Part shown: piece by piece, positions 5,719-32,913 of the stretch | Position numbering within the stretch: position 1 is the stretch's first letter | How the letters are laid out: every line of letters begins with the position of its first letter | NCBI GenBank assembly: GCA_023265235.1 | Contig: JAHFUF010000003.1 | Location: 1 to 34,802 of the forward strand | Origin: Blastocatellia bacterium | Lineage (GTDB): Bacteria; Acidobacteriota; Blastocatellia; Chloracidobacteriales; JADJPF01 | Length of the DNA: 34,802 bases | Direction: 5' to 3' | The notes under the pieces: generated by a model | Database searches by the model: none | The model's input: only the letters and a program-made list of their open reading frames with translations | Told to the model about the DNA's origin: nothing | Translations under genes and position numbers: made by a program

Positions 5719-7200
5719 ATGGGAAAAATATTTCTAGCAATGACTTTAATAGTATTATTTTGTAATGTAGTACTAGCTAAAGATAGAGTTTTATTAGTGG
5801 GTATCAGTCAGTATAAAGATAAAAATATCAAACCTATAGCAGGCCCAAAAGAAGATGCTAAGGATATGGCAAATTTTTTAGTTAGTCATTTTAAGTTTGC
5901 TCAATCAGATATAAAAATGCTTTTGGATGAGCAAGCAACTAAAGAAGCGATTATTAATGTTTTTCATAGTTGGTTAATTGAGGGAACAAAACCAGGAGAT
6001 AGGGTCTTTTTCTTATATTCAGGACATGGTTCAAGGCTGCCTGATGATAATGGTGATGAAGATGATGGAAAAGATGAAACAATAGTGCCTTATGATACAG
6101 TTGCTAAAACAGGTGTAGGTCAAATTCGTGATGATGTGTTTGAGCAGTTAATAACTGAGCTTTCAGGACGTAGAGCCGTATTAGTATTTGACTCATGCCA
6201 TTCAGGAACTATTTCACGAGGTGGAGCAGCTACTACAACTAGCCAAAGTAGTTATGCCCGTTATTTACCTAGCCCAGAAGAGTTTGAGCAGATTGCAAAT
6301 ACAAGTGGAACGCGAGGTGGTATGGTAGATGGCTATGAAGTGTTACCAGATAAAAATAAACATAGTAGTAGGGATTTAGTCCCAGAATTTGGTGATAAAC
6401 ATTCTGACAATCTTGTTGGTGTGGTTGTTTTTAGTGCTGCACAAACAGGGCAAATAGCACATTCTTTCAAATCTGATAGAGGCTTTAGAGGTGCTTTGAC
6501 TTATACCTTTATTAAACTACAAGAAAATAGCTTACCTATAATAAGTGAATTACGAAAAGGGATCGTTGACCAAATTAAAGACTTACAAAAAAATCAAAAA
6601 CTGGACGGACAACAACAACCTATGGTGGAATGTCTTTCTACTCTGCCATTAGAAGACTTTCCTTTATTTGGAATAACAGAGCAAATACCTGTTATCGAAC
6701 AAGCCGTAGAGTTTGCTACGCTAGCTAATGCTGATTCTAAAATAAAAATTAGCATCGCTACAAAGGAAGGAAAACAATCTTATAAAGTTGGGGAATATGT
6801 TTCTTATCAAGTAAATACAGATACATTTGGATATTTATATGTGATTATTTTTAGTGCTAAGGATCAAGCAGTGTGTTTGTTACCAAATCCATACGACTTA
6901 AAAAATCGTGTTAATCCTGGGGCAATAAGCTTTCCTAACAACGACAAATACAACTTTGAAGTAACTGAGCCAGTAGGCTATGACATAGTTATAGCACTTT
7001 TATCCAAAGAAGAACTTGATTTTGGAGAAAAGGAAATCTACACATGGAAAGAAGCTTTTTCTCGCCTAAATATAAAAGAGCTACAAAAGGCTATAGAAAC
7101 TACTAATAAAAATCTATCTAGGAGTAACAAAGTTGTTCCTGTAAAAACACAATATACTGATTGGCAAGCTGCTATTACTGTAGTTAGAGCATTCAAGTGA
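5719..7200 (+). CDS. exported caspase-like peptidase (C14) with C-terminal DUF4384-like domain
   Basis: N-terminal signal-like segment MGKIFLAMTLIVLFCNVVLA. Catalytic His in FFLYSGHGS and Cys in LVFDSCHSGT. C-terminal GEYVSYQVNTDTFGYLYVIIFSAKDQAVCLLPN matches the DUF4384 pattern. Confidence 0.85.
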   Translation: MGKIFLAMTLIVLFCNVVLAKDRVLLVGISQYKDKNIKPIAGPKEDAKDMANFLVSHFKFAQSDIKMLLDEQATKEAIINVFHSWLIEGTKPGDRVFFLYSGHGSRLPDDNGDEDDGKDETIVPYDTVAKTGVGQIRDDVFEQLITELSGRRAVLVFDSCHSGTISRGGAATTTSQSSYARYLPSPEEFEQIANTSGTRGGMVDGYEVLPDKNKHSSRDLVPEFGDKHSDNLVGVVVFSAAQTGQIAHSFKSDRGFRGALTYTFIKLQENSLPIISELRKGIVDQIKDLQKNQKLDGQQQPMVECLSTLPLEDFPLFGITEQIPVIEQAVEFATLANADSKIKISIATKEGKQSYKVGEYVSYQVNTDTFGYLYVIIFSAKDQAVCLLPNPYDLKNRVNPGAISFPNNDKYNFEVTEPVGYDIVIALLSKEELDFGEKEIYTWKEAFSRLNIKELQKAIETTNKNLSRSNKVVPVKTQYTDWQAAITVVRAFK

Positions 7201-7321
7201 GAGTAAGTATTAAGTACGAAGTATGAAGTTAATATTCATGGCTAAATAATAGCAAGCGATTAAGTGCTACTACTGGTCGTTTGCTATTTACTAGTAAAAA
7301 AAGGAGATATAGGGAGATATT

Positions 7322-8968
7322 ATGAAGCTTACAAAATGGGTTATGTATGTTTTAGTAGTAATGATATCGTTCATATTAAGCACAAGTAACGTAGAAATGC
7401 AAAGTAGTCGACCTAGTACTTCTAGCCAAGATAACCGTAGTCAAAAGGTTGTAGGAGTTGGTGAAAATAAAATAAATCAACGACGCATCGCACTAGTAAT
7501 AGGTAATAGTAGTTATCCCATAGGAGCATTAGCAAATCCTGTAAATGATGTAGCCGCAATGGAAAAAGCTCTTACTGCTACAGGATTCCAAGTTACGCGT
7601 CTAACTAATTTAACCCAACGAGATATGAAATCAGCCATAGCTAATTTTGGTAGAAGCTTGAAAGATGGAGGAGTAGGGCTATTTTATTTTGCTGGTCATG
7701 GTAATCAAGTTAATGGGGAAAATTATTTAATCCCAATAGATGCTAAGATTAGCCAAGAAGCAGATGTAGATATTTATGGTGTAAATGTTAGCAATATATT
7801 GCAACAAATGGGGAGTGCTGGTAATTCATTAAATATTTTAATCTTAGATGCTTGCCGTAATAACCCATTTATTGCTAGCAGCAAACGTAGTGGCACACAA
7901 GGATTGGCTCAAATAAATGCTACCAAAGGGTTGTTTATTGCTTATGCCACAGCCCCAGGTTCAACAGCAAGTGATGGACGTGAGGTAAATAGCCCTTACA
8001 CAGAAGAATTAGTAAAAGCCTTAAATATTTCAGGGCTTTCTATTGAAGAAGTATTTAAGTTTGTATTACGAGGAGTGGACGAAAAAACTCAAGGAAAACA
8101 ACTGCCTTGGGTTTCTTCTGTGCTTAGTGGTGATTTTTATTTTAGAGCAGGCACTAACAGTGACAACACCGCACTTGAGCGTGACAAAGCAGTTTGGGCA
8201 GGGTGTTGTATAAATAGCAATAGAGTATCAGACTATCAAAGTTATTTAGATGGGTACCCTAGCGGATTATATGCAACAATAGCCAAGGCACGGATTAAAG
8301 AACTTGAGCAACCTACTAATGTTAATGCTAGTGGGAATAAAAATTCAGGTAATGGTACTTCTCCTAGTACAAATGAAGTAGATCCGCCCAAAGTTATAGA
8401 ATCACGTTCATCAGAACTACAACTAGCAGAAATGCAATTTAAGGGTGGGGATTATGATAAGGTAAGCCGCACTTGTGAAAGCTTCATGAAAAACCAACCT
8501 GATCACCCGCAAGCAAACCGCTTATTAGGAATGAGTTATTTTTTAGACAGGAGATATCAACAAGGAGTGCCTTTTATTGTTAATGCTGTAAAAAGAGGGG
8601 AAGTAGTAACTTTTACCATTCAGCATCATGGTAATAGCTTATATGGGGATAGGTTAACAAAAGAAACTTTAATTTTGTATAAAGATAGGTTTGAATTTCA
8701 AGGAGGAGATAGATATTCACTCCCTTATAGTAGCTTATTAGAACTTAACGAAAAACAAAGCTCTAGTGAATATCCTTACGTACATATGAAGTTCAAGTTT
8801 TTTGATAACAAAGAGAAAAAAGAAAAAGTTAAGGACTACAATTTTTATGCTCCTTCTGCGGAGTTGTATGAAAACAAAAGCATGAAAGTTAGATGTTCTG
8901 GTTGTGACAAATGGACAGATAGTATGGTGAATATAATTAGAGAAATAGCACAGGGCGGACTAAGATAG
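7322..8968 (+). CDS. exported caspase-like peptidase (C14) with TPR-like and unknown C-terminal region
   Basis: RIALVIGNSSYP...NPVNDVAAM...LFYFAGHGNQVNGENYLIPID...ILILDACRNNPF is the canonical bacterial caspase-domain pattern. There is an N-terminal hydrophobic segment, and an RBS-like aaaggag lies upstream. Confidence 0.8.
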   Translation: MKLTKWVMYVLVVMISFILSTSNVEMQSSRPSTSSQDNRSQKVVGVGENKINQRRIALVIGNSSYPIGALANPVNDVAAMEKALTATGFQVTRLTNLTQRDMKSAIANFGRSLKDGGVGLFYFAGHGNQVNGENYLIPIDAKISQEADVDIYGVNVSNILQQMGSAGNSLNILILDACRNNPFIASSKRSGTQGLAQINATKGLFIAYATAPGSTASDGREVNSPYTEELVKALNISGLSIEEVFKFVLRGVDEKTQGKQLPWVSSVLSGDFYFRAGTNSDNTALERDKAVWAGCCINSNRVSDYQSYLDGYPSGLYATIAKARIKELEQPTNVNASGNKNSGNGTSPSTNEVDPPKVIESRSSELQLAEMQFKGGDYDKVSRTCESFMKNQPDHPQANRLLGMSYFLDRRYQQGVPFIVNAVKRGEVVTFTIQHHGNSLYGDRLTKETLILYKDRFEFQGGDRYSLPYSSLLELNEKQSSSEYPYVHMKFKFFDNKEKKEKVKDYNFYAPSAELYENKSMKVRCSGCDKWTDSMVNIIREIAQGGLR

Positions 8969-9043: not shown

Positions 9044-11185
9044 ATGCGAATGGTAATGTTATTGCTGGTGTTTTTATATAGTTTTAGCAGTGATATATAT
9101 GCTCAATCTAATGCAAAACCAAATGAACAAAAAAGGTCAGTAGTTGTAAAAAAAGCTGATCTAACAGTATTGCCAGCAAAAGCAAAGAGGTTTGCCTTAA
9201 TAGTAGGAATAGATAATTATCAAAGTAGCCAACTAACTAAATTAGGTGGTGCTGTAAATGATGCAAAAGCTTTGGCAGAAACGCTAGAAACATATGCAGG
9301 ATTTCCCAAAGAGCAAATTTATTTGTTGACCTCTTCTACAGGAAAAATAGGTGAAAACTTTTCTTCTGCATCCGAAGCCAATAGAGCAAATATTTTACGG
9401 ACGTTAGCGATTATTGGAAACTCTATTCCCAAAGATGGATTGTTGTTAGTAGCATTTTCTTGTCATGGAATGCAGCGAGATAAGAAAGGTGATAAAGTTT
9501 ATATTTTGCCTTCAGATGCACAAACTTTAACAACAGATTTGTTGGAAGAGACAGCATTAAATGTAGGAAAATTAAAAGAAAAGGTTCTTGCTACAGGAGT
9601 AGAGCAAGTAATTTTTCTAATAGATGCTTGTCGCAATGATCCAGAAGCAGGAAAAGGAGAAACAGACAATCTTTTAACCAAAGAGTATTTGAAAGCTTTT
9701 TCTTTTAACTATGATGAAAAAAATAAAGATGTAAATGCGTTTGCTACTTTTTTTGCTTCTTCCGAAGGAGAAAGAGCTTATGAAGATGCAGAAAAAAAAC
9801 AAGGCTATTTTACTTATGCTTTAATAGAAGGATTAAAAGGTGCTGCGGCTAACTCACAAGGAGAAGTGACTTTAATTAACTTAAAGAGTTATTTAGAAAG
9901 AGTTGTTCCTACAAGAGTGAAAAAGAGTACAGGTGAAAAACAACTACCAAAAATAGAGATTGGAGGATATAAATCAGAATCCTTAGTTTTATCAGTTATT
10001 CCTAAAGTAAATACGTCTAAACCACCAGAAGAAGAAGTAACAATCCCAACGGGTACGTTGATAATAGTAACAAAAGAAGCAGGCATAAAATTAGAGTTAG
10101 ATGGTGTTGATAAAGGAGTTAGTGTAGCAAATAATCAAGAATTAAAATTAAAAGGTCATCCTGCAAGAACAGTAACAATTGTAGCAAAAAAAGCAGGTAA
10201 ACCAGATAAAGTAGAAAAGTTTGAAATCAAGCCTGATCAAGACAACAAAATACTTATAGGATGGGATGAAATAGCTGTTACTCCAACAACTCCAACAAAT
10301 AATCCATCAGTCTCAACAGTCTACAAACCAGCAGGAACGGCAGTAGCTCCAATGATAAGAAGCTACAGCTATGAAACAGTAACAATAGATAGTAAAGGAG
10401 ATATAAAAAACCGAGAAAATAAGCAAGCGGGTTATTATGAGGAGGATTTAGGAAAAGGAGTAAAGCTAGAGATGGTGGAAGTAGCTAGTGGTGAATTTAT
10501 GATGGGATCGTCAGAAACAGAAGTAGATCGATTCAGTGATGAGGGACCACAGCACCAAGTAAGAGTAGAAGGATTTTATATAGGGAAATATGAAGTAACA
10601 CAGGGACAATGGAAAGCAATAATAGGAAGTAACCTTAACCCAAGCAACTTTAAGGGAGATGATAATTTGCCAGTAGAGAAAGTAAGTTGGGAAGAAGCAA
10701 AAGAATTTTGTAAGAAGTTGAGTGAGAAGACAGGAAGAGAATATAGATTGCCAAGTGAAGCAGAATGGGAATATGCAGCAAGAGGAGGGACAAGAACAGC
10801 ATTTGGGTTAGGAGAAACAATAACGCCAGGTGTAGTAAACTATAATGGGGACTATCCATATGGAGGAGCCACAAAAGGGGAATACAGAGGAAAAACAGTA
10901 AAAGTAGGAAGTTTAGGAATAGCGAATGGATATGGGCTATATGATATGGCGGGAAATGTGTGGGAATGGTGTGAAGATGGATGGCATGACAGCTATAAAG
11001 GAGCACCAACAGATGGAAGAGTGTGGGAGAGTGGGGCTGATAATAGTTACCGGGTCTTGCGTGGTGGTTCGTGGCTCGACTATGCTTACTACTGCCGTTC
11101 TGCCGTCCGCGGCAGGCTCGCGCCGGGCAACCATGACAACGTCGGGTTTCGGGTTGTTGTTGGGGCTGCGAGGACTCTTCAGTAA
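9044..11185 (+). CDS. DGR target protein 1: exported caspase-like peptidase + PEGA-like beta domain + FGE-sulfatase/C-type-lectin-fold domain ending in VR1
   Basis: Signal-like [20 protein letters not shown]. Caspase His in VAFSCHGM and Cys in [13 protein letters not shown]-type motifs [50 protein letters not shown] and [16 protein letters not shown]. The last 45 codons are the VR. Confidence 0.9.
11050..11182 (+). repeat. DGR variable repeat VR1
   Basis: Collinear with the TR (12765-12897) and the same length. Across the variable part there are 15 differences, all at TR adenines (e.g. TR AAC AAC AAT vs CTC GAC TAT). The 3' end differs from the TR at fixed positions (ctgcgaGGAc vs ctgcgaTGTc). 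Confidence 0.9.
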
Positions 11186-11282: not shown

Positions 11283-11636
11283 ATGCAAGAATTACCAATA
11301 ATTCAAAAAACTTATGACTTAATACTATGGTATGTACCAATATTGAACAAATTACCAAAAGATCATAAGTTTGCTATTGGAGAACGGATAATAAAAGGGC
11401 TATATGACTTGTTAGAACAGTTAATAATAGCTCGATATGCTAAAGACAAGCTTGGACTCTTAGAGCCAATTAACGCTAGGTTAGATATTTTACGCTATCA
11501 AACTCGCTTGCTCCTTAACTTAAGCTTAATGGCTTCTAATCGCTATGAGTATGTTTCTAAACAAATTAATGAAATAGGCAAAGATTTGGGTAGCTGGATT
11601 AAACAGCAAAAAACAAAGACAAATGAAGAAAAATGA
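11283..11636 (+). CDS. avd: DGR accessory variability determinant (Avd; four-helix-bundle / 23S rRNA IVS-protein family)
   Basis: A 117-aa helical protein. The N-terminus [31 protein letters not shown] is typical of bAvd-type proteins. Its stop overlaps the RT start (ATGA at 11633-11636). Confidence 0.85.
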
Positions 11637-12764: not shown

Positions 12765-12897
12765 CCGGGTCTTGCGTGGTGGTTCGTGGAACAACAATGC
12801 TAACAACTGCCGTTCTGCCAACCGCAACAGGAACGCGCCGGGCAACCATAACAACAACGGGTTTCGGGTTGTTGTTGGGGCTGCGATGTCTCTTCAC
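12765..12897 (+). repeat. DGR template repeat (TR)
   Basis: A non-coding copy of the VR sequence. It carries AAC/AAT at every position where the VRs vary (it would read ...[36 protein letters not shown]). The invariant segments contain no adenine at all. Boundaries are +/- a few nt. Confidence 0.9.
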
Positions 12898-26131: not shown

Positions 26132-26133
26132 TT

Positions 26134-27063
26134 ATGCAAATTAAATTTTACTTAACATTATTGTTATTAGTTTTTATAGTAGCTTGTGATAGCACTCCAA
26201 AAGAAAAAGAGGTTAATTCTAAACTACCTACTGCTAAAGTAGAATTAGCAAACACTCCTGTACCAGAAACTAATGCTAATTTGGACTTGGAAGAATCTTC
26301 ACCTCAATTAGAATTATCTATTTGGAAAAAAGACGCTAATGGAAAGCCTATAAAGACTAGCCCAACACAAGCTTTTCGTAGTGGTGATTCTATTAGAGTA
26401 ACAGTTAAAACAAATAAAGAGGGCTATTTATACCTCTTACTTAATGGCAGTACAGGTAGTAAAAAAGCACTTTATCCTGATGCGCGAATTAATGGAGGTA
26501 CTAATAAAATTAAGGCTGACAAAGAAGTAACTATTCCTGCTAATGGTTGGTTTGTTTTTGATAAAAAACCAGGAGTGGAAACAGTTTATGCTCTATTCGC
26601 GCTAAAACCAGAGCTTAAATTGTTTCAACAAATTGAGCTTATTACAAATTTAAGAAAATATAATCAAGTAGGTGGTAATAATAGCTTAAATCAAGCGAAT
26701 GCTAGTGCAAATGCTAGCACTGGTATTAATACAAGTACAGAAGCCAACAATAGTATTAATGATACCGCAACAGGAAACATAGTTAACCAAACTGACAATA
26801 CAAACAATACAAATAATACAAACAATACTACAACAAATACTGAACTAGAAAATGAGGTTTTGGAACAATTGCAAGAAAGGGCTAAAGATATAGACTACGT
26901 TCCTGATAGCCAATTAATAGCCAATAAGGATTCTAATCATAATAGTAATAGTAATAGCACTAGCACTAGTATCACAAATACTAGTAATTCTGTAAAAGTG
27001 AAGCCTACAGCAATAAATAGACAAGATAGTATAGTCAGTATTCTTAAGCTTTATCATAAATAG
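26134..27063 (+). CDS. DUF4384-like lipoprotein with an N/T/S-rich low-complexity tail
   Basis: I prefer the ATG at 26134 (AAGGAG 5 nt upstream) over the track's GTG at 26128. The lipobox-like segment is LLLVFIVAC. DUF4384 pattern: FRSGDSIRVTVKTNKEGYLYLLLNGSTGSKKALYPD. Confidence 0.7.
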   Translation: MQIKFYLTLLLLVFIVACDSTPKEKEVNSKLPTAKVELANTPVPETNANLDLEESSPQLELSIWKKDANGKPIKTSPTQAFRSGDSIRVTVKTNKEGYLYLLLNGSTGSKKALYPDARINGGTNKIKADKEVTIPANGWFVFDKKPGVETVYALFALKPELKLFQQIELITNLRKYNQVGGNNSLNQANASANASTGINTSTEANNSINDTATGNIVNQTDNTNNTNNTNNTTTNTELENEVLEQLQERAKDIDYVPDSQLIANKDSNHNSNSNSTSTSITNTSNSVKVKPTAINRQDSIVSILKLYHK

Positions 27064-27271: not shown

Positions 27272-29356
27272 ATGAGAAGGTTGTTATTAACCATTTGTGT
27301 TGTAATGTTAATAGGTTTGTCTTTAAGAATGGGTTTAAGTCAAAACACCAGAGGGCAGGCTGTAGTAAAGATAAAAACAGAAGAAGGTATCTTAAATTTA
27401 TATGAAGGAAGTTATGCACTAGTAATAGGAGCGAGTCATTACACAAATGGTTGGTCAAACCTAGAAGGAGTAAATACAGATGTTAATAAAGTTACAACAG
27501 CATTAAAAGAACATGGGTTTGAGGTAGAAATATTAATTGATCCAACTAGAGAACAGTTAGATCAAATGATGAGAAAATTTATTAGTCGTTATGGGATAAA
27601 AGAGGGAAATAGAATAGTCGTTTATTATGCAGGACATGGATATACAGAAAAAAATAATGGCTCAAATTTGGGTTATATAGTGCCTGTAGACGCACCATTA
27701 CCTAAAAAAGATCTTGGTGGGTTTATAGAAAAAGCAATAAGTATGAGCGAAATAGAAAACTATGCTCGTCAAATACGTTCTAAGCATGCCTTATTTGTGT
27801 TTGATAGCTGTTTTTCAGGGACATTATTTGAGCCAAGAAGTAGAGCCGTGCCGCCAATCATTAGTAGCAAAACTTCTAGACCTGTGCGCCAATTTATTAC
27901 CGCAGGAACTGCTGAACAAGAAGTTCCTGATAATAGTGTTTTCTGCCAACAATTTGTTGAAGGATTAAAAGGAGAAGCTGATTTAGATGGAAATAATTTT
28001 ATTACAGGTAATGAATTAGGGGCTTTTTTAGAAACACAAGTAACAAATTATTCTAATCGTAGTCAAACTCCTAGATATGGCACTATCCGTGATCCCAATT
28101 TAGACAAAGGTGATTTTGTATTTGCATTAGTAGATACAAAGGTAGTAGGAATAACAAAACCAAAACCCAAAATGGAAATAGAAAGAGAAGTACCAGTAGG
28201 CACACTAGTAATAACAGCAAATCGTAAAGATATGGAAATATTATTAGATAAGGAAGTAGTAGCGAAATCAAAAGCAGTAGGAGAAAAAATAACAATTAAA
28301 AATATGGAAGCAGGTAAAATAATAGAGATAATAGGGCGAGTAGGAGGAGAAAAAGATGTAGTAGAACAAATTGAGTTAGTAGCAGGGGTAAAAACAGAAA
28401 TGAGCTTAGGCAAAACAATTGTTAGCAGTAATCCTAGTGAAAGTGCTAATACAGTTGGAGCTAGTACAAATGGCAGTTCTATACCAGTAGCAAGTTACAG
28501 ACCAGTAGGAAAAGCAGTAGCCCCAATGATGAGAAGCTATAATTATGAAACGGTGACAATAGATGATAAAGGGTATGTCAAAAATCGAGAAAACAAGCAA
28601 GCAAGTTTTTATGAAGAGGGTTTAGGAAAAGGGGTAAAGCTAGAAATGGTGGAAATAGCTGGGGGGACATTTATGATGGGGTCACTAGAAACAGAGGCCA
28701 GTACATATGGTGATGAGTATCCACAGCATCAAGTAAAAATAGAAGGGTTTTATATAGGAAAATATGAGGTAACACAAGGGCAATGGAAAGCAATAATGGG
28801 AAGTAACCCAAGCGACTTTAAGGGAGATGATAATTTGCCAGTGGAGAACGTAAGCTGGGAAAAAGCAAAAGAGTTTTGTAAGAAGTTGAGTGAAAAAATA
28901 GGAAGGGAATACAGGTTGCCAAGTGAAGCAGAATGGGAATATGCAGCAAGAGGAGGGACAAAAACAGTATTTGGGTTAGGGGAAACAATAACGCCAGATG
29001 TAGTAAACTATAATGGAGATTATTCATATGGGACAGCAACAAAAGGAGAATACAGAAAAAAAACAGTAAAAGTAGGAAGTTTAAGAATAGCAAATGGATA
29101 TGGGATATATGACATGCACGGTAATGTATTGGAATGGTGTGAAGATGGGTGGCATGATAGCTATAAAGGAGCACCAACAGATGGAAGTGCGTGGGAGAGT
29201 GGGGCTGATAATAGTGGCCGGGTCTTGCGCGGTGGTTCGTGGAACAACAATGCTAACGTCTGCCGTTCTGCCTTCCGCAGCAGGAACGCGCCGGGCATCC
29301 TTATCAACTACATCGGGTTTCGGGTTGTTGTTGGGGCTGCGAGGACTCTTAGGTAA
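27272..29356 (+). CDS. DGR target protein 3: exported caspase-like peptidase + PEGA-like domain + FGE-sulfatase/C-type-lectin-fold domain ending in VR3
   Basis: Signal-like MRRLLLTICVVMLIGLSL. His in VVYYAGHGY and Cys in LFVFDSCFSGT. FGE motifs [39 protein letters not shown] and GIYDMHGNVLEWCEDG. The C-terminal 46 codons are the VR. Confidence 0.9.
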   Translation: MRRLLLTICVVMLIGLSLRMGLSQNTRGQAVVKIKTEEGILNLYEGSYALVIGASHYTNGWSNLEGVNTDVNKVTTALKEHGFEVEILIDPTREQLDQMMRKFISRYGIKEGNRIVVYYAGHGYTEKNNGSNLGYIVPVDAPLPKKDLGGFIEKAISMSEIENYARQIRSKHALFVFDSCFSGTLFEPRSRAVPPIISSKTSRPVRQFITAGTAEQEVPDNSVFCQQFVEGLKGEADLDGNNFITGNELGAFLETQVTNYSNRSQTPRYGTIRDPNLDKGDFVFALVDTKVVGITKPKPKMEIEREVPVGTLVITANRKDMEILLDKEVVAKSKAVGEKITIKNMEAGKIIEIIGRVGGEKDVVEQIELVAGVKTEMSLGKTIVSSNPSESANTVGASTNGSSIPVASYRPVGKAVAPMMRSYNYETVTIDDKGYVKNRENKQASFYEEGLGKGVKLEMVEIAGGTFMMGSLETEASTYGDEYPQHQVKIEGFYIGKYEVTQGQWKAIMGSNPSDFKGDDNLPVENVSWEKAKEFCKKLSEKIGREYRLPSEAEWEYAARGGTKTVFGLGETITPDVVNYNGDYSYGTATKGEYRKKTVKVGSLRIANGYGIYDMHGNVLEWCEDGWHDSYKGAPTDGSAWESGADNSGRVLRGGSWNNNANVCRSAFRSRNAPGILINYIGFRVVVGAARTLR
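29218..29353 (+). repeat. DGR variable repeat VR3 (remote, atypical)
   Basis: Collinear with the TR, with differences at TR adenines (GTC, TTC, AGC, ATC, CTT, ATC, TAC). It also has one extra NNC codon in the (AAC)3 tract (ATC AAC TAC ATC vs AAC AAC AAC) and one non-A mismatch (C at 29230 vs T at TR 12777). The first five variable codons equal the TR. Confidence 0.8.
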
Positions 29357-29417: not shown

Positions 29418-29519
29418 AAGAAAACCTGTAATGTTTAACAGCCCAAACAGACAAACAATATAGAAGGATAAAAAAACTGAAGTTTTTAGAACAGTACAAA
29501 ATGAGTAGGGAGTAATAAA

Positions 29520-30557
29520 TTGAAAAAAGATATAAGCGAAAAAGAAATTATAGAATATTTTTTAGGAGGTTTATCTGATGAAAAAGCTGATTCTTTTGAA
29601 GAATCGTATTTTACAGATGAATCTGTCTTTGAGTTAATGGAAATAACAGAGGATCGTTTAGTTGAGAAATATGTTAGTAATCGTTTGTCTGCAACAGATA
29701 AAGCTAGATTTGAAAAACACTACTTGGTTAGCCAACAACGCTATCAAAAAGTACAAGAACAGAAACTTTTGACAGAATTCATTACTACATACCGTTCCGA
29801 TTATTTGCCAGAACCTGTTACAAATGTAAGTGTAGAAACTAGAAAAATAGCTGATAAACAAAAATCTTTCTTTACTGTAATAAAAGAGGCTTTTGAACAA
29901 TCATTTCCGTTAAGATTATCTTTTGCCGCAGGGTTAATAGCAATTATATTTATGCCAATTACGTTACTAAAAATACTTGACCTGCAAAAAGAGTTAGGCG
30001 AAACACAGATTAAATTATCAAAAGCTGAAGAAAAAAAACTAATTAGTGAAGAAGAAAAAGAGCAAAAAGAAAAAGAACGATTAGCGAGTATAGGAGAAAT
30101 AGAAACGTTAAAACAAGACTTAGAGAATGTGAAAAAATTAAATATTGGTTTGGAATCTATTAAAAAAACTGATACTACTTTAGCTTCTACAATAGCGAGT
30201 TTTTTATTAATACCAGGATTATCAAGTAGGGGTGAAGGTCAGAAAGGAAACGAATTAGTTTTACCACAAAACATTAAAACTATAAAAATGCAGCTTAAAC
30301 TAGATACAAAGAAGACTTCACAATACAAAACATTTGAAATCAAAATAACAGATATTAAGGAAAATGTTGTTGAACCAGGCAAGCTAATTTTTGTCCCTAA
30401 TCCTAACGCAAAAGTATTGGCATTTGAACTACCTGCTACACAATTTAATTCTGGAGATTATATTCTAGTTCTAAATGGAATTAGCGATAGTGGTTCTAAG
30501 GTAAAGGATTTAGATGTCTATCAATTTTCAGTTGCTGTTAATAAGAAGTCTAAATAG
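29520..30557 (+). CDS. single-pass membrane protein with anti-sigma-factor-like N-terminus and coiled-coil region
   Basis: TTG start with gggag upstream. The N-terminal EIIEYFLGGLSDEKADSFEESYFTDESVFELME...LSATDKARFEKHY resembles cytoplasmic anti-sigma N-domains. The TM helix is LSFAAGLIAIIFMPITLL, followed by a K/E-rich coiled coil. It neighbours an ECF sigma gene. The functional call is tentative. Confidence 0.5.
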   Translation: MKKDISEKEIIEYFLGGLSDEKADSFEESYFTDESVFELMEITEDRLVEKYVSNRLSATDKARFEKHYLVSQQRYQKVQEQKLLTEFITTYRSDYLPEPVTNVSVETRKIADKQKSFFTVIKEAFEQSFPLRLSFAAGLIAIIFMPITLLKILDLQKELGETQIKLSKAEEKKLISEEEKEQKEKERLASIGEIETLKQDLENVKKLNIGLESIKKTDTTLASTIASFLLIPGLSSRGEGQKGNELVLPQNIKTIKMQLKLDTKKTSQYKTFEIKITDIKENVVEPGKLIFVPNPNAKVLAFELPATQFNSGDYILVLNGISDSGSKVKDLDVYQFSVAVNKKSK

Positions 30558-30690: not shown

Positions 30691-31218
30691 TTAGGTTTTA
30701 GGTTTTAGATATTTGCTTACGCATTTTAGCATTGCTGTTTTAATACGAAATCTTTTTACACGAAGATTTACTACAGTTAATCCTATTTGTTCTGCAAGAA
30801 CATCATCTTTATCTAAATCATCGGAAAAGAAAATAAGACGGTCGTTTAGGGACAACGCGAGATTATCAGCACATTTTCTTACGTATTGCAAATATTGTTT
30901 CTGGATTAATACATCATCTAATGAATTTCCTTTTTGTGGATATTCAGCTTTTATATCCTCTAAAGATTCAGGTGCTTTTTGAAGCTTTTTATACATATCT
31001 ATAGCAAGATGTTTAGCTATCCCAAAAGCAAAAGCTTCAATATTTTCAATAGGATGCTTAGCATTGATTTTTTTAAACAAAGCACTCATAACTTCACTAG
31101 CAAGATCCTCTGCCTGGTTACTTAAACCTTTGCGATAGAAAAAAATACAAAGTTTTTTAAGCAACGTAGGAAATTTTTGAGCAAACTCATCTAGTGGAGA
31201 GTTGTAGTTGAAACTCAT
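30691..31218 (-). CDS. ECF-type sigma-70 family factor
   Basis: 175 aa. Region-2-like NQAEDLASEVMSALFKKI...EAFAFGIAKHLAIDMYKK and a region-4-like HTH, LAEQIGLTVVNLRVKRFRIKTAML. Confidence 0.7.
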   Translation of the reverse strand: MSFNYNSPLDEFAQKFPTLLKKLCIFFYRKGLSNQAEDLASEVMSALFKKINAKHPIENIEAFAFGIAKHLAIDMYKKLQKAPESLEDIKAEYPQKGNSLDDVLIQKQYLQYVRKCADNLALSLNDRLIFFSDDLDKDDVLAEQIGLTVVNLRVKRFRIKTAMLKCVSKYLKPKT

Positions 31219-31350
31219 TAGCCCTCTAAATTATTTACTTACGAGTATATTGCTAGTTAATGTAATTACTAATTATTAAAGAAGCAATTAGGAGCGACAA
31301 TAATACTACAATTATTTACAATAATAAAGATAACTGTGTATAGTTTTTTT

Positions 31351-32913
31351 CTATTCAGAGGAGGTTAATACTATAAAAGCTGTTTGCCAATCAAATTTAA
31401 TTTTGGTAGTAGAGCCACTTTTTTGCTTATTGGCTTCTAACATAGTTTTTTCTAATTTTTCTGTGATGAGAGAAAATACTTCTTTCCAAGATAAATCTTC
31501 AGATAAGACCTTATTATGAAAGTTGAGAGGCACAGTTGATAACAAAGCGACAACCGTATCTTGACCAACAGGCGCACTAACTGTTAAGCCAAAATCTCCT
31601 GTATTTTGTGGTATAGAAATTATACCTGGTGTAATAAAATTATAGGAATATTCTTTATTAGGAAAAATACAAACAACGGATTCTTTTTTATCTAATGTTT
31701 TAGTGAAAATAAGCAAATGTAAATAACCTTCAACATCGGTTTTTATTTTGTAAGAAATTTTCTCCCCTAATTTGTAATCAGTTTTTTGCTCTGTGGTATT
31801 AACTATAATATTAATCTTAGAGTTAGTATTTATTAGACTAGCAAATTGGCTAGGAATTGAAAGGGTAGGTATTGGAGAACTGGTTAATATTTCTGGTTTT
31901 ACAATAGGCTTATTAGCTGTTACTCCAAATACAGGTAATGTTTTTAGTGAGGGAGGAGAAATAATTTCAAAGTATGGGTTTTGATAGTACTTAATTTTTT
32001 GTTGTTCTTTTAGTTTTTCTATATTTTTAGTAATTGTTTCCTCTAAAGTATCTAAAGAAAGGAGTTTATCTTTTTGCAGTTCTACAAAAAAATAAGAAAA
32101 AACTCCATAAGCCTTGCTATCAGAAATAAATTCTTGTGCTGGTTGATAAGCTGCTGCTGCACTTAGTATTACTATACCATCAGGGTTATTAATCTTTGAA
32201 ATATCAACAAAAGGTGAAGACGCTTGGTTAGAGCGACTAACACTACTCTTATTAATTTGTGGCAATATTGTATAGCCTAGACTGTCATTGTCCTGAGCGT
32301 TTGAACCACGCGTAGACCTAGTAATAGTTTCTATTTCTTGAAGTTGGTCAGGTGTTGGCAAATAACGAACAGTGCTTTGTGCTAAATCTTTGGTGGATAG
32401 AGTACTACGAGATATTGTACCAGAATGACAACTATCAAAAATCAATACTGCTTTCCTACCACCAAGCTGAGAAATGAACTTTTCAAAAACATCATCTCGA
32501 ATTTCATTAGCTTGGGTCTTAGGGTCAGCATCATAAGCAACAATAGTTTCATCCATTTTATCTTCTTCATCACCGTTATCATCCTTTATCTGAGAGCCAT
32601 GGCCAGCAAAAAAGAAAAACACTCTATCACCTGGTTTTGTATCGGTGATTAACCAAGTACAAAAAGTATTTTCTATTTCTGTTGCAGTTGCTTGTTCATT
32701 GAGCAAAAGCTTGATATCTGAGTTAGCAAAGCCAAGTTTGTCAGTTATAAAGCTTTCCATACGTTTTGCATCTGGGACAGCACCGAAAAGAGGACGTAGC
32801 CCTTTATCGCTATGCTTGTAAGTCGAAATACCAATGATTAAAGCACGATCACGAGCATAGGAAAGAGAAGAACACAGTAGAAGGAAAATAAAGGCTATAA
32901 TGCAGTATTTCAT
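31351..32913 (-). CDS. exported caspase-like peptidase (C14) with C-terminal DUF4384-like domain (inverted paralogue of 5719-7200)
   Basis: Signal-like MKYCIIAFIFLLLCSSLSYA. His in FFFFAGHGS and Cys in LIFDSCHSGT. DDNGDEEDKMDETIVAYD parallels DDNGDEDDGKDETIVPYD in 5719-7200. The C-terminus has GEKISYKIKTDVEGYLHLLIFTKT. Confidence 0.85.
   Translation of the reverse strand: MKYCIIAFIFLLLCSSLSYARDRALIIGISTYKHSDKGLRPLFGAVPDAKRMESFITDKLGFANSDIKLLLNEQATATEIENTFCTWLITDTKPGDRVFFFFAGHGSQIKDDNGDEEDKMDETIVAYDADPKTQANEIRDDVFEKFISQLGGRKAVLIFDSCHSGTISRSTLSTKDLAQSTVRYLPTPDQLQEIETITRSTRGSNAQDNDSLGYTILPQINKSSVSRSNQASSPFVDISKINNPDGIVILSAAAAYQPAQEFISDSKAYGVFSYFFVELQKDKLLSLDTLEETITKNIEKLKEQQKIKYYQNPYFEIISPPSLKTLPVFGVTANKPIVKPEILTSSPIPTLSIPSQFASLINTNSKINIIVNTTEQKTDYKLGEKISYKIKTDVEGYLHLLIFTKTLDKKESVVCIFPNKEYSYNFITPGIISIPQNTGDFGLTVSAPVGQDTVVALLSTVPLNFHNKVLSEDLSWKEVFSLITEKLEKTMLEANKQKSGSTTKIKFDWQTAFIVLTSSE

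What the first reader, a model, noticed from the sequence alone, without database searches (positions are those of the whole stretch)
5719..32913. 27-kb island: eight exported caspase paralogues wired to hypervariable lectin-like receptors, kinase/pseudokinase and ECF sigma modules - a candidate extracytoplasmic sensor-protease system
Contents of the island:
- Eight C14 caspase-like ORFs, each with an N-terminal signal or anchor and an intact GHG...D(S/A)C dyad: 5719, 7322, 9044, 13102, 19574, 22027, 27272 and 31351(-).
- Five FGE/CLec domains, three DGR-diversified and two fixed.
- Six DUF4384-like modules.
- One S1 protease, one active Hanks kinase, one pseudokinase, and one ECF sigma gene with an anti-sigma-like neighbour.

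What I infer from this:
- The diversified domain is covalently linked to the protease, so ligand recognition by a hypervariable receptor could gate caspase activity outside the cytoplasm.
- The DUF4384 proteins or domains could be substrates, adaptors or inhibitors.
- The kinase (DUF4384 ectodomain), the pseudokinase (FGE ectodomain) and the sigma gene with its anti-sigma-like neighbour could carry the signal inward.
- This resembles an adaptive-repertoire pattern-recognition or self/non-self (possibly cell-death) system rather than a phage receptor-binding DGR.

DGR surveys have noted variable proteins with signalling or protease N-termini. I cannot check whether this exact multi-component locus has been described.
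Basis: inference. Interest (0 to 1): 0.8.

Follow-up and report, generated by a model that had tools for sequence, protein, structure and literature searches.

The report
Exported caspase-lectin array with hypermutation cassette
A bacterial gene island encodes eight exported caspase-like proteases; three carry a lectin-like binding tip that a built-in reverse-transcriptase element hypermutates. They sit among membrane kinases, a sigma/anti-sigma pair and small partner proteins that recur together in other bacteria, so the island looks like a cell-envelope sensor-protease system and not a phage receptor.

Summary
The inventory is real. Pfam finds Peptidase_C14 in all eight ORFs. All eight keep the His/Cys dyad and have an N-terminal hydrophobic signal or anchor. 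There are five FGE/CLec domains, six DUF4384 modules, one intact HtrA-like serine protease, one active Hanks kinase, one pseudokinase, a divergent ECF-type sigma and a neighbour from an anti-sigma (zf-HC2) family.

The DGR is textbook: bAvd, an RT with the LPIGNLTSQ and YVDD motifs, and a 122-nt TR. In VR1 and VR2 every mismatch (15/15, 16/16) lies at a TR adenine. VR3 shows the same pattern plus one extra codon.

The same non-DGR gene set recurs in unrelated metagenome contigs (L033, L118, L119, L120, L027, L028, L032), so the genes form a conserved neighbourhood.

DGR-diversified caspase-CLec proteins are already published for cyanobacteria, and the cyanobacterial examples read here lack signal peptides. 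An 86%-identical DGR cassette elsewhere serves a MoxR-vWA conflict system.

New here are the exported location and the embedding in an undescribed caspase/DUF4384/kinase/ECF envelope module. Ligand-gated proteolysis and inward signalling remain inference.

Verdict: observation confirmed, interpretation partly supported, new variant of a known kind.

The parts
5719..7200 (+). o5719: signal peptide, C14 caspase (metacaspase-like), DUF4384
   Evidence: Pfam C14 1e-20 and DUF4384 2e-15. Dyad SGHG/DSC. Matches PDB metacaspase-1 at 2.6e-21. Homologues (29-45% identity) in all 10 loci compared that hold caspase/DUF4384 genes; in L120 the best hit is only a C14 domain without DUF4384 (29% over 197 aa).
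7322..8968 (+). o7322: signal/anchor, C14 caspase, weak TPR-like C-terminus
   Evidence: Pfam C14 1e-41. Dyad AGHG/DAC. Relatives in L033, L120 and the T. nelsonii locus L013.
9044..11185 (+). o9044: signal peptide, C14 caspase, FGE/CLec; DGR target 1
   Evidence: Pfam C14 6e-23 and FGE 7e-55. Dyad SCHG/DAC.
11050..11171 (+). VR1
   Evidence: 15 of 15 mismatches to the TR are at TR adenines.
11283..11636 (+). bAvd accessory gene
   Evidence: Pfam bAvd 1.9e-22, above cut-off.
11633..12715 (+). DGR reverse transcriptase
   Evidence: RVT_1 7.7e-24. LPIGNLTSQ and YVDD motifs. 63-73% identical to RTs of cyanobacteria (mostly filamentous genera) and Ca. Thiomargarita nelsonii.
12765..12886 (+). Template repeat (TR)
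   Evidence: 122 nt with 27 A. 14 variable codons (12 AAC/AAT, AGG, CAT). A occurs only at codon positions 1 and 2, and no stop codons are reachable.
13102..15078 (+). o13102: signal/anchor, C14 caspase with EF-hand loop, FGE/CLec; DGR target 2
   Evidence: Pfam C14 2e-17 and FGE 4.5e-49. EF loop DQNGDGYITGTE at residue 240. The FGE domain's best solved relative is TvpA (2y3c, 7.7e-28).
14943..15064 (+). VR2
   Evidence: 16 of 16 mismatches are at TR adenines.
15195..17720 (+). o15195: pseudokinase, FGE (cytoplasmic side), TM, FGE (outside); both FGE domains fixed
   Evidence: Pfam Pkinase 1e-24 and two FGE stretches. Motif losses and a single TM at about 565-585.
17881..19557 (+). o17881: active Hanks Ser/Thr kinase, TM, DUF4384 ectodomain
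   Evidence: Pkinase 1.5e-48. All catalytic motifs present. DUF4384 1e-30 with a profile built from this segment and the five window paralogues, so partly circular. The same architecture occurs in L033, L118 and L120.
19574..21889 (+). o19574: signal/anchor, C14 caspase with EF-hand loop, PG_binding_1
   Evidence: Pfam C14 9e-20 and PG_binding_1 4e-12. 58-59% identical to o13102 and o27272 over their N-terminal parts (first ~290 and ~400 aa).
22027..23547 (+). o22027: anchor, C14 caspase, CarboxypepD_reg/PEGA-like
   Evidence: Pfam C14 3e-25. The C-terminal hits are weak. It corresponds to the 'second caspase' of the acidobacterial operons.
23477..24301 (+). o23477: signal peptide, DUF4384 (likely start near 23540)
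   Evidence: Pfam DUF4384 5e-15. The public gene call is 253 aa.
24314..25015 (+). o24314: signal peptide, DUF4384
   Evidence: Pfam DUF4384 9e-7, above cut-off.
25028..26131 (+). o25028: signal peptide, HtrA/DegS-like serine protease, CarboxypepD_reg-like
   Evidence: Trypsin_2 7e-24. Triad intact. Same position in the cassette in L028 and L120.
26128..27063 (+). o26128: lipoprotein (IVAC lipobox), DUF4384
   Evidence: Pfam DUF4384 2e-12. N-terminus read.
27272..29356 (+). o27272: signal peptide, C14 caspase with EF-like loop, FGE/CLec; remote DGR target 3
   Evidence: Pfam C14 2e-20 and FGE 1.6e-55.
29218..29342 (+). VR3
   Evidence: A-site substitutions, plus one T>C change and one extra AAC-derived codon relative to the TR.
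29520..30557 (+). o29520: anti-sigma-family protein (helical N-domain, TM and long helix, Ig-like ectodomain)
   Evidence: 4953 family representatives. 38 of 62 aligned members hit zf-HC2. AF2 model at pLDDT 87. A homologue lies near C14-DUF4384 in L032.
30691..31218 (-). o30691: divergent ECF-type sigma factor
   Evidence: Sigma70_r2 27.4 bits against a cut-off of 24. Weak matches to 18 sigma-factor models, mostly ECF-type, all below cut-off.
31351..32913 (-). o31351: signal peptide, C14 caspase, DUF4384; upstream of the sigma gene on the same strand
   Evidence: Pfam C14 7e-22 and DUF4384 2e-12. 41% identical to o5719.

Best explanation
**What it is.** The island is an envelope-located protease-signalling module of a recurrent, so far unnamed type.
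- Its core is exported caspase-like (C14) proteases, some fused to the small beta-sandwich DUF4384.
- With them come free DUF4384 proteins or lipoproteins, an HtrA-like serine protease, a Hanks kinase with a DUF4384 ectodomain, and an ECF-type sigma with an anti-sigma-family membrane protein.
- A portable DGR cassette (CLec tip, bAvd, RT, TR) sits inside this module.

**Shown.**
- The DGR rewrites 14 codons of the C-terminal lectin-like domain of three exported caspases, about 1e15 variants each.
- The domain content, the predicted export, the intact catalytic residues and the A-specific VR/TR pattern.
- The recurrence of the neighbourhood in other contigs.

**Inferred mechanism.**
- The variable lectin tip binds a changing extracytoplasmic ligand, such as a phage, competitor, predator or kin surface molecule.
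- Binding concentrates or activates the Ca2+-dependent caspase domain at that site.
- The caspase then cleaves envelope substrates. Candidates are DUF4384 proteins, the ectodomain of the anti-sigma protein, the kinase ectodomain, or peptidoglycan-associated targets reached by the PG-binding paralogue.
- The ECF sigma and the kinase/pseudokinase pair carry the signal into the cell.
For: **DGR.**
- bAvd and RT are above Pfam cut-offs.
- The RT has the LPIGNLTSQ and YVDD motifs.
- The TR is 122 nt. 15/15 (VR1) and 16/16 (VR2) mismatches are at TR adenines. Adenines lie only in codon positions 1 and 2, and no stop codon is reachable.
- The CLec domain's closest solved relative is the DGR variable protein TvpA, ahead of true FGE enzymes.

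**Export.**
- All eight caspases, the serine protease and the three DUF4384-only proteins have N-terminal hydrophobic leaders, and one has a lipobox.
- 104 of 120 C14-FGE homologues and 112 of 120 C14-DUF4384 homologues also have such leaders.
- One paralogue carries PG_binding_1.

**Catalysis.**
- The His/Cys dyads and the Ser triad are intact.
- EF-hand Ca2+ loops occur in o13102, o19574 and o27272. Three acidic residues of the loop (D240, D244, E251) are near-invariant across 44 family members.

**Recurrence without a DGR on the stretch of each contig that was read.**

| Locus | Genes found |
|---|---|
| L120 | 2 Pkinase-DUF4384, 2 C14-FGE, 2 ECF sigma, 2 DUF4384, Trypsin_2-CarboxypepD_reg, C14 |
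| L118 | 3 C14-FGE, C14-DUF4384, DUF4384, ECF sigma, Pkinase-DUF4384 |
| L033 | 3 C14 (one fused to DUF4384), 2 DUF4384, CsgG, ECF sigma, Pkinase-DUF4384, FGE, C14-FGE |
| L119 | 2 ECF sigma, Pkinase-WD40, 3 C14, C14-FGE, WD40 proteins, DUF4384 |
| L027 | ECF sigma, Pkinase-TPR, C14-DUF4384, C14, DUF4384, 2 WD40-C14 |
| L028 | same DUF4384-DUF4384-trypsin-DUF4384 order as window 23477-27063 |
| L032 | Pkinase, DUF4384, C14-DUF4384, CHAT, and an o29520 homologue |

**Portability of the cassette.** An RT from the same 90%-identity protein cluster, with 86% nucleotide identity over CLec tip, avd, RT and TR, serves an EAD9/MoxR/vWA system in L034-L037.

**Precedent for the logic.** The caspase-like Csx29 cleaves Csx30, which holds the ECF sigma RpoE. 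One group of Csx30 C-terminal domains is DUF4384 (bioRxiv 10.1101/2022.08.17.504292).
Against: - No direct evidence links binding to protease activation, or names any substrate.
- Signal peptides were called by a hydrophobicity heuristic only.
- The sigma and anti-sigma-like genes are convergent, not co-transcribed. The sigma factor is divergent: region 4 has no Pfam hit, and all its NCBIfam sigma-factor matches are below cut-off. o29520 itself scores only E=0.32 on zf-HC2.
- Profile comparison found no relation between the o29520 ectodomain and DUF4384.
- The DUF4384 model has no informative structural neighbour.
- One FGE domain of the pseudokinase is predicted to be cytoplasmic, which does not fit a purely extracytoplasmic scheme.
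- VR3 differs from the TR by an indel and one non-A change, so it may no longer be updated by the present TR.
- None of the related caspase/DUF4384 loci had an RT on the stretch that was read (whole contig only for L120), so the DGR link may be rare.
Confidence: 0.45

Rival explanations
1. **Envelope-directed conflict or abortive-infection system.** The hypermutated lectin tips detect an invader (for example phage proteins at the envelope). The caspases, the serine protease and the PG-binding paralogue then destroy the cell's own envelope to kill the infected cell. This is the exported counterpart of the published DGR-linked MoxR-vWA/STAND conflict systems.
For: - The RT lineage and a near-identical cassette serve an EAD9/MoxR/vWA ternary system.
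- The closest RTs are mostly in filamentous cyanobacteria and giant sulfur bacteria, as in the multicellular-bacteria clade of PMC10907252.
- Caspase and trypsin effectors are typical of these systems (PMC7159879).
Against: - The window has no NTPase switch (MoxR, STAND, GTPase), no vWA and no EAD adaptor.
- PADLOC gives only generic domain hits.
- The published model senses invaders inside the cell, whereas here the sensors are exported.
- The conserved core also occurs next to housekeeping genes (ribosomal protein L31, release factor, Mur ligase) in L030.
Confidence: 0.2
2. **Variable adhesin-protease for foraging, predation or matrix remodelling.** The diversified lectin only tethers a secreted protease to changing surfaces or polymers. 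The kinases and sigma factor are ordinary neighbours that regulate expression, not a receptor relay.
For: - Most cellular DGR targets are membrane-anchored or secreted binding proteins (PMC8144416).
- The C14-FGE and C14-DUF4384 families are abundant in Acidobacteriota, named by sources as Blastocatellia, Pyrinomonadaceae and Thermoanaerobaculia.
- L032 and L025 have large adhesin- or lectin-like neighbours.
Against: - DUF4384 is shared between proteases, free proteins and a kinase ectodomain. This sharing, together with the repeated presence of ECF sigma, argues for an interaction network and not a simple secreted enzyme.
- Many paralogues look anchored and not released.
Confidence: 0.2
3. 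**Accretion without coupling.** A mobile DGR cassette landed in a paralogue-rich island. The components do not work together.
For: - The cassette is portable.
- The island is flanked by an IS3-type transposase and by an AAA_22 gene pair that also lies next to the related DGR in L036.
- No relative of the caspase/DUF4384 module had an RT on the stretch that was read.
Against: - The non-DGR components recur together at low sequence identity in several loci.
- Three separate paralogues carry matching VRs, one of them 16 kb from the TR.
- The tandem C14-FGE genes in L118 and L120 have VR-like, patchily variable 3' ends with a conserved downstream tail. This suggests remote DGR targeting there too.
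Confidence: 0.1
4. **True FGE enzymes.** The FGE-sulfatase domains are formylglycine-generating enzymes that modify sulfatases or the caspases.
For: - The Pfam family name.
- NCBI names for homologues, 'SUMF1/EgtB/PvdO family nonheme iron enzyme'.
Against: - The closest solved relative is the non-enzymatic DGR variable protein TvpA.
- The segment after RGGSW is the hypervariable region. It holds a single Cys, whereas FGE enzymes have a Cys pair there (the enzyme feature is from my own knowledge).
- No sulfatase gene is in the window.
Confidence: 0.03

Closest known systems
Cyanobacterial DGR variable proteins with N-terminal orthocaspase and C-terminal CLec/FGE domain (Vallota-Eastman et al. 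2020, PMC7517822)
   Same: - Same two-domain fusion.
- Same gene order: target, bAvd, RT.
- RT 65-73% identical.
   Different: - The cyanobacterial proteins start directly with the caspase domain and have no leader (L001, L003, L010, L012). The paper predicts most variable proteins to be cytosolic.
- Here all are exported. They come as three targets among eight caspase paralogues, with DUF4384, kinase and ECF partners that are absent from the cyanobacterial flanks.
- The one RT-clade relative that has a leader is Ca. Thiomargarita nelsonii (L013).
DGR-linked MoxR-vWA (VMAP) ternary and STAND conflict systems (Kaur et al. 2020 PMC7159879; Kaur et al. 2021 PMC8195603; Dore et al. 2024 PMC10907252)
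   Same: - A hypermutated FGS/CLec sensor combined with caspase or trypsin effectors.
- The same RT lineage.
- A cassette 86% identical at nucleotide level sits in such a system in L034-L037.
   Different: - The window has no MoxR, vWA, STAND NTPase or EAD adaptor.
- The sensor and protease are one exported polypeptide, whereas PMC8195603 describes intracellular sensing.
- The signalling partners here are a TM kinase, a pseudokinase and an ECF sigma.
Type III-E CRISPR Craspase: Csx29 protease, Csx30, Csx31, RpoE (Kato et al. 2022, bioRxiv 10.1101/2022.08.17.504292)
   Same: - A caspase-like protease controls an ECF sigma by cleaving its partner.
- One Csx30 group has a DUF4384 C-terminal domain.
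   Different: - No CRISPR components are present.
- In Craspase the trigger is RNA, and the cleaved Csx30 fragment with RpoE is released into the cytoplasm.
- The o29520 ectodomain is not DUF4384.
- This is an analogy only.
Extracellular lectin-protease recognition cascades of animals (complement lectin pathway MBL-MASP) - analogy from my own knowledge
   Same: A carbohydrate or pattern-binding module outside the cell is coupled to a protease that starts signalling.
   Different: - Unrelated protein folds and catalytic classes.
- Here the recognition module is somatically hypermutated by a retroelement.
- No cascade has been demonstrated.
Bacterial STK family 'Proteo1' with C-terminal TM, FGE-sulfatase or DUF4384 (bSTK atlas, bioRxiv 10.1101/2025.01.12.632604)
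   Same: The kinase-TM-DUF4384 and kinase-FGE architectures of o17881 and o15195.
   Different: - The atlas lists the architectures only.
- In the passages matched for 'DUF4384', 'FGE-sulfatase' and 'pseudokinase' it does not link them to caspases or DGRs. The paper was not searched for 'caspase'.

Membership tests
Diversity-generating retroelement (DGR) | Reverse transcriptase of the DGR type ([LIV]GxxxSQ motif and YxDD) | tested here: met
   RVT_1 7.7e-24. LPIGNLTSQ at residue 196 and YVDD at 231.
Diversity-generating retroelement (DGR) | Accessory variability determinant (Avd-like four-helix protein) next to the RT | tested here: met
   bAvd 1.9e-22, 80 bits against a cut-off of 40, overlapping the RT start.
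Diversity-generating retroelement (DGR) | TR/VR pair whose differences fall at TR adenines | tested here: met
   VR1 15/15 and VR2 16/16 mismatches at A. VR3 has A-site changes plus one T>C and a 3-nt insertion.
Diversity-generating retroelement (DGR) | VR at the 3' end of a target gene encoding a CLec-fold domain | tested here: met
   The VRs end 14-17 nt before the stop codons. FGE-sulfatase domains score 5e-49 to 2e-55. The best PDB relative is TvpA.
Diversity-generating retroelement (DGR) | Ongoing mutagenic retrohoming (VR variation within a population) | not testable with these tools
   The only other contig with the same RT protein sequence had no retrievable DNA. The other contigs from the same 90%-identity RT cluster (L034-L037) hold a different, MoxR-vWA-linked locus.
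Peptidase C14 (orthocaspase/metacaspase-like) | p20-like caspase fold domain | tested here: met
   All eight are above the Pfam cut-off. o5719 matches solved metacaspase-1 at 2.6e-21. o13102 matches MALT1 only weakly, at 1e-3.
Peptidase C14 (orthocaspase/metacaspase-like) | Catalytic His-Cys dyad | tested here: met
   (G/C)HG and D(S/A)C motifs at the expected spacing in all eight.
Peptidase C14 (orthocaspase/metacaspase-like) | Proteolytic activity and P1 specificity | not testable with these tools
   This needs biochemistry.
MoxR-vWA (VMAP) ternary / STAND conflict systems | MoxR-type AAA+ ATPase with a vWA protein, or a STAND NTPase, with EAD adaptors in the locus | tested here: not met
   None found among the window ORFs. 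They are present in the related locus L034. The only ATPase in the window is an AAA_22 protein outside the island.
ECF sigma / anti-sigma pair | Sigma-70 regions 2 and 4 | tested here: inconclusive
   Region 2 passes (27.4 bits against 24). Region 4 has no Pfam hit. All its NCBIfam sigma-factor matches (mostly ECF-type) are below cut-off, though several alignments reach residue 167 or so.
ECF sigma / anti-sigma pair | Adjacent membrane anti-sigma factor with an N-terminal anti-sigma domain | tested here: inconclusive
   o29520 itself scores E=0.32 on zf-HC2. 38 of 62 family members hit zf-HC2. The model shows a helical N-domain, a TM and an ectodomain. The genes are adjacent but convergent.
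Hanks-type Ser/Thr kinase | G-loop, VAIK Lys, HRD Asp, DFG Asp | tested here: met
   o17881 has all four, with DLG in place of DFG. o15195 lacks the G-loop, the Lys and the HRD Asp, so it is a pseudokinase.
Type III-E Craspase-Csx30-RpoE | Cas7-11 effector, TPR-CHAT protease, Csx30/Csx31 | tested here: not met
   No CRISPR-associated genes are in the window. The comparison is an analogy only.
Recurrent exported caspase/DUF4384 neighbourhood (unnamed; defined here) | Leader-bearing C14-DUF4384, plus a second leader-bearing C14, plus a DUF4384-only protein in one cluster | tested here: met
   All three genes: window (o5719/o31351, o22027, o23477/o24314/o26128) and L025, L027, L030, L031, L033. 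L118 and L119 have C14-DUF4384 (DUF4384 hit weak in L118, not on record in L119) with DUF4384-only and other C14 genes. L028 and L032 have C14-DUF4384 and DUF4384-only but no second C14. L120 has no C14-DUF4384 fusion.

The most novel reading that the evidence does not exclude
This is a bacterial extracytoplasmic 'adaptive-repertoire' recognition system.
- Retroelement-hypermutated lectin tips on exported, Ca2+-dependent caspases act as a pre-formed receptor repertoire outside the cell.
- Engagement of a ligand triggers proteolysis of DUF4384-tagged partners and of the anti-sigma or kinase ectodomains.
- That proteolysis turns on an ECF-sigma and Ser/Thr-phosphorylation response.

It would be a functional analogue of lectin-protease recognition cascades. 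It would also define DUF4384 as a caspase-docking or substrate module.
Probability: 0.2. Interest if true: 0.85.

Novelty: new variant of a known kind. Interest (0 to 1): 0.6.

Why it matters
- Published DGR 'antigen sensor' models for non-phage systems place the hypermutated lectin inside the cell, next to NTPase switches. This locus puts the sensor and a protease on one exported polypeptide. It also ties them to membrane kinases and an ECF sigma pair.
- If the coupling is real, it would show hypermutated receptors working at the cell surface to start a proteolytic signal.
- It would give a first functional handle on two very large uncharacterised groups. In single searches capped at 8,000 candidates, exported C14-DUF4384 proteins gave more than 800 relatives and exported C14-FGE proteins more than 2,000.
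- It would also give a role to DUF4384, which in the searched library appears only in passing in seven papers.
- The parts are small and separable, so the predictions can be tested directly by biochemistry.

Tried and rejected
- **Anti-sigma ectodomain as DUF4384.** A window-built HMM gave a weak hit (E 0.003). Profile-profile comparison gave nothing (probability 0.5%). The model is a generic Ig-like sandwich. Its best PDB match is the chagasin-type cysteine-protease inhibitor EhICP2 (E 1e-6, TM 0.53, 15% identity), which is too generic to build on.
- **DUF4384 fold.** The AF2 model is confident (pLDDT 88), but there is no PDB neighbour below E 0.08.
- **Metagenome scan with a C14-FGE alignment.** The degenerate patterns mostly picked up generic FGE proteins. 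Only about 4 of 80 loci had the fusion and none had DUF4384, so it gave no usable co-occurrence statistic.
- **Hairpin downstream of the VRs.** None was found. The conserved tail of about 110 nt holds a direct repeat, not a stem.
- **Sigma-70 promoter and terminator scan.** No better than shuffles.
- **12-nt core of the shared upstream element.** Not enriched.
- **PADLOC.** Only domain-level kinase, caspase and protease hits, with no system assignment.
- **Source organism.** Not resolved. The contig is a whole 34,802-nt MAG contig, and the one name recovered (for a cluster mate of the RT) is only 'MAG... [bacterium]'. RT relatives point to cyanobacteria and Thiotrichales. Caspase relatives point to Acidobacteriota.
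- **Direct test of DGR activity.** Comparison with a contig holding the same RT failed because that contig's DNA was not retrievable.

Full report
**1. What is in the window**

The window is a complete 34,802-nt metagenome-assembled contig of about 34% G+C. Proteins from it are recorded on a contig of exactly this length. Between 5719 and 32913 almost every gene belongs to one theme.

Pfam places Peptidase_C14 above its gathering score in eight ORFs: 5719, 7322, 9044, 13102, 19574, 22027, 27272 and 31351(-).
- Three of them (9044, 13102, 27272) end in an FGE-sulfatase domain.
- Two (5719, 31351) end in DUF4384.
- One (19574) ends in PG_binding_1.

Three short proteins (23477, 24314, 26128) are DUF4384-only.

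| ORF | Content |
|---|---|
| 25028 | Trypsin_2/HtrA-like protease |
| 15195 | kinase-like domain followed by two FGE domains |
| 17881 | kinase followed by DUF4384 |
| 30691(-) | passes Sigma70_r2 |
| 11283 and 11633 | bAvd and a reverse transcriptase |

The flanks hold a DNA methylase, an AAA_22 ATPase with an unknown partner, and a split IS3-type transposase.

**2.

- **Caspase dyads.** All eight caspase domains keep a His in (G/C)HG and a Cys in D(S/A)C.
- **Serine protease.** It keeps His80/Asp122/Ser197.
- **Export.**
  - All eight caspases, the serine protease and the DUF4384-only proteins begin with a hydrophobic leader.
  - o26128 has a lipobox, IVAC.
  - This is a Kyte-Doolittle heuristic, not SignalP.
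- **Active kinase.** o17881 has every Hanks motif and a single TM helix before its DUF4384 domain.
- **Pseudokinase.**
  - o15195 lacks the glycine loop. It has VIR where VAIK should be, and HGHLTPNN where HRDxKxxN should be.
  - Its first FGE domain precedes the only TM helix and its second follows it. One lectin-like domain is therefore predicted on each side of the membrane.
- **Sigma.** The sigma protein is a divergent ECF-like factor.
- **Anti-sigma-like neighbour, o29520.**
  - It has no Pfam hit of its own.
  - It belongs to a family with 4,953 representatives, and 38 of 62 aligned members match the anti-sigma zf-HC2 domain.
  - A confident model (pLDDT 87) shows a helical N-domain, a TM helix continuing into a long helix, and an Ig-like ectodomain.
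  - The sigma and anti-sigma-like genes are adjacent but convergent.

**3. The DGR**

- The TR lies at 12765-12886, just after the RT.
- VR1 (11050-11171) and VR2 (14943-15064) differ from it at 15 and 16 positions. Every one of those is a TR adenine.
- The TR has 27 adenines in 14 codons (12 AAC/AAT, one AGG, one CAT).
  - They occupy only first and second codon positions.
  - No stop codon is reachable.
  - That gives about 1e15 protein variants per target.
- The RT carries the DGR signature LPIGNLTSQ and YVDD.
- VR3 (29218-29342), 16 kb away, shows the same A-site pattern. It also has one T>C change and one extra AAC-derived codon.
  - A related TR in L034 has four AAC units where the window TR has three.
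  - VR3 may therefore record an older TR length.
- The diversified domain's best solved relative is the Treponema DGR variable protein TvpA (7.7e-28), ahead of real formylglycine-generating enzymes.

**4. Relatives of the DGR**

The RT is 63-73% identical to RTs of Nostoc, Fischerella, Scytonema, Phormidium, Pseudanabaena, a Merismopediaceae MAG and Candidatus Thiomargarita nelsonii.

In several of these loci the gene just upstream of bAvd-RT is also a C14-FGE fusion: Nostoc (L001), Fischerella (L003), Pseudanabaena (L010), a Merismopediaceae MAG (L012) and T. nelsonii (L013).
- The cyanobacterial proteins start directly with the caspase domain and have no leader.
- The Thiomargarita protein has a leader.
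- None of these flanks contains DUF4384.

An RT from the same 90%-identity protein cluster (P0122) occurs in four contigs.
- There, the CLec tip, bAvd, RT and TR are 86% identical in DNA to window 10547-12924.
- The upstream genes are EAD9, EAD9, a MoxR-type ATPase and a vWA protein. This is the published ternary conflict system.

The cassette, including the lectin tip, is therefore a portable module grafted onto different N-terminal machinery.

**5. Relatives of the caspase/DUF4384 genes**

- o5719 has more than 800 relatives with the same C14-DUF4384 architecture. Sources name them mainly in Acidobacteriota and Schekmanbacteria.
- o13102 has more than 2,000 relatives, nearly all C14-FGE among those listed.
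- By the same heuristic, 112 of 120 and 104 of 120 of them carry an N-terminal hydrophobic leader. Several of the exceptions are visibly truncated at the N-terminus.

The neighbourhoods are the key result.

| Locus | Genes |
|---|---|
| L025, L027, L030, L031 | four-gene operon: leader-C14-DUF4384, leader-C14, leader-DUF4384, leader-WD40-C14. L027 adds an ECF sigma and a kinase upstream |
| L028 (Schekmanbacteria) | DUF4384, DUF4384, small ORF, Trypsin_2-CarboxypepD_reg, DUF4384, then C14-DUF4384. This is the order of window 23477-27063 |
| L033 | C14, two DUF4384, C14-DUF4384, CsgG, C14, ECF sigma, Pkinase-DUF4384, FGE and C14-FGE |
| L118 | three tandem C14-FGE genes, C14-DUF4384, DUF4384, ECF sigma, Pkinase-DUF4384 |
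| L119 | two ECF sigmas, Pkinase-WD40, three C14, C14-FGE, WD40 proteins and DUF4384 |
| L120 | two Pkinase-DUF4384, two C14-FGE, two ECF sigmas, two DUF4384, Trypsin_2-CarboxypepD_reg and C14 |
| L032 | a homologue of o29520 near Pkinase, DUF4384 and C14-DUF4384 |

Reciprocal BLAST groups the window proteins with these partners at 30-55% identity.

None of these loci showed an RT on the stretch read. However, the tandem C14-FGE genes of L118 and L120 have patchily variable 3' ends between conserved flanks, followed by a conserved downstream tail. They look like remote VRs. I could not find their TR, so this is only suggestive.

**6. Clues to mechanism**

- **Calcium.** o13102 and o19574 have canonical EF-hand loops (DQNGDGYITGTE, DQDGDGYVTGSE) and o27272 has a close variant. 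Three acidic residues of the loop (D240, D244, E251) are nearly invariant across 44 family members. A Ca2+-dependent protease fits an extracytoplasmic site. Ca2+ activation is known for metacaspases (my own knowledge).
- **Two caspase lineages.** o5719 is metacaspase-like (2.6e-21 to solved metacaspase-1). o13102 only weakly resembles the MALT1 paracaspase.
- **DUF4384.** It models as a small beta-sandwich with no informative solved neighbour.
- **Anti-sigma ectodomain.** It is an Ig-like sandwich. Its top PDB match is a chagasin-type cysteine-protease inhibitor, but with low TM-score and among many generic Ig hits. I record this as a lead, not a finding. It is not related to DUF4384 by profile comparison.

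**7. Literature**

- Metacaspase-FGE fusions, and N-terminal TM segments or signals on bacterial metacaspases, were catalogued in 2012 (PMC3501461).
- Orthocaspase N-termini on cyanobacterial DGR variable proteins were reported in 2020. Most variable proteins were predicted to be cytosolic (PMC7517822).
- The idea that DGR-diversified FGS/CLec domains are hypermutated invader sensors coupled to caspase, trypsin or TIR effectors is published.
  - PMC8195603 treats these lectin-like domains as intracellular sensors regulated by NTPases.
  - Sources: PMC7159879, PMC8195603, PMC10907252.
- DUF4384 appears in only seven papers of the searched library, always in passing. Two mentions are useful.
  - One group of Csx30 C-terminal domains is DUF4384. 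Csx30 is the substrate of the caspase-like Csx29 and holds the ECF sigma RpoE.
  - A bacterial kinase family ('Proteo1') carries TM, FGE or DUF4384 C-termini.
- I found no paper describing the exported caspase/DUF4384/kinase/ECF neighbourhood, or a DGR inside it. This statement is limited to the library searched.

**8. Interpretation**

*Shown:*
- a functional-looking DGR with three targets;
- eight catalytically intact, leader-bearing caspase paralogues;
- a gene set that recurs across distant genomes.

*Inferred:* the variable lectin tip binds an external ligand and thereby localises or activates its own caspase. The protease then acts on envelope partners (DUF4384 proteins, the anti-sigma or kinase ectodomains, peptidoglycan-associated targets). 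The ECF sigma and the kinase/pseudokinase pair carry the result inward.

*Precedent:* the Craspase-Csx30-RpoE logic gives a precedent for caspase-like control of an ECF sigma.

*Rivals:*
- an envelope-directed suicide or defence system;
- a variable adhesin-protease used for foraging or predation;
- mere accretion of genes;
- true FGE enzymology, which is very unlikely.

*Points that do not fit neatly:*
- the cytoplasmic FGE domain of the pseudokinase;
- the convergent sigma/anti-sigma arrangement;
- the imperfect VR3;
- the absence of an RT from the stretches read of the related caspase/DUF4384 loci.

**9. Verdict**

- The locus is a real, recurrent, extracytoplasmic multi-protease module with a DGR plugged in.
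- The wiring is not demonstrated, and the central fusion is already known from cyanobacteria.

I rate it a new variant of a known kind, with moderate to high interest. It moves the hypermutated-sensor idea to the cell envelope, and it points to a large uncharacterised caspase/DUF4384 system that is directly testable.

Noticed in passing
window 29218-29345 (VR3) against TR 12765-12886; L034 11135-11260: VR3 carries one extra AAC-derived codon and one non-adenine (T>C) difference relative to the window TR. The related TR in L034 has a run of four AAC where the window TR has three. The TR length may have changed after VR3 was last rewritten, or cDNA slippage may have occurred.
   Followed up: partly
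window 15195-17720 (o15195): The pseudokinase has one FGE/CLec domain before its only TM helix (predicted cytoplasmic) and one after it (outside). In two other Pkinase-FGE-FGE proteins (L083, L091) the TM comes before both FGE domains, so this split topology is unusual.
   Followed up: partly
L034-L037 (ENA ERZ2728437x; NCBI GCA_009773835.1), against window 10547-12924: A DGR cassette 86% identical in DNA (its RT is in the same 90%-identity protein cluster) sits behind EAD9-EAD9-MoxR-vWA genes and has its own TR and two VRs. The lectin tip travels with bAvd-RT-TR as one portable unit.
   Followed up: yes
window 21952-22010 and 29421-29479: A 59-nt intergenic element, 71% identical between its two copies, lies upstream of the o22027 operon and of the anti-sigma-like gene. 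It could be a shared regulatory site. Its 12-nt core is not enriched elsewhere in the window.
   Followed up: partly
window 3623-5393 (-) and L036 2056-4105 (-): An AAA_22 ATPase (37.5% identical between the two loci) with a weakly similar partner gene flanks both the window island and the related DGR in L036. It may belong to a mobile element or be a DGR-associated pair.
   Followed up: partly
window 11136-11246, 15029-15139, 29307-29417: About 110 nt after each VR are 91-93% conserved and run past the stop codons. The segment contains a direct repeat (AGCGAGCGAAGCGAGCG) and not the hairpin known from the Bordetella phage DGR.
   Followed up: partly
L118 7400-7660, 9650-9910, 11790-12050; L120 7100-7320, 9370-9590: The tandem exported C14-FGE genes in two unrelated metagenome contigs have VR-like, patchily variable 3' ends and a shared downstream tail (GCGCTTTTACCCTTT...). 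No TR or RT is present on the stretch read (for L120, the whole contig). They may be remote DGR targets.
   Followed up: partly
window 13819-13854, 20300-20335, about 27950-27985: EF-hand Ca2+-binding loops are embedded in the caspase region of o13102, o19574 and o27272. They are conserved across the exported C14-FGE family.
   Followed up: partly
window 20599-20645, 24091-24137, 25834-25880, 28279-28325: A 47-nt motif (70-87% identical to the reference copy) recurs in four different genes (o19574, o23477, o25028, o27272). In o25028 it lies at the start of the CarboxypepD_reg/PEGA-like region. It suggests a shared small beta-sandwich module that Pfam barely detects.
   Followed up: no
window 33427-34725: An IS3-family transposase lies at the contig end. 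Its integrase part is split over two overlapping ORFs (33801-34289 and 34237-34725), so it carries a frameshift or is decayed.
   Followed up: no
window 29520-30557 (o29520), residues 225-340: The Ig-like ectodomain of the anti-sigma-family protein has a chagasin-type cysteine-protease inhibitor (EhICP2, 3m86) as its best PDB match, at E 1e-6, TM 0.53 and 15% identity. This is intriguing next to eight cysteine proteases, but the match sits among many generic Ig-fold hits.
   Followed up: partly
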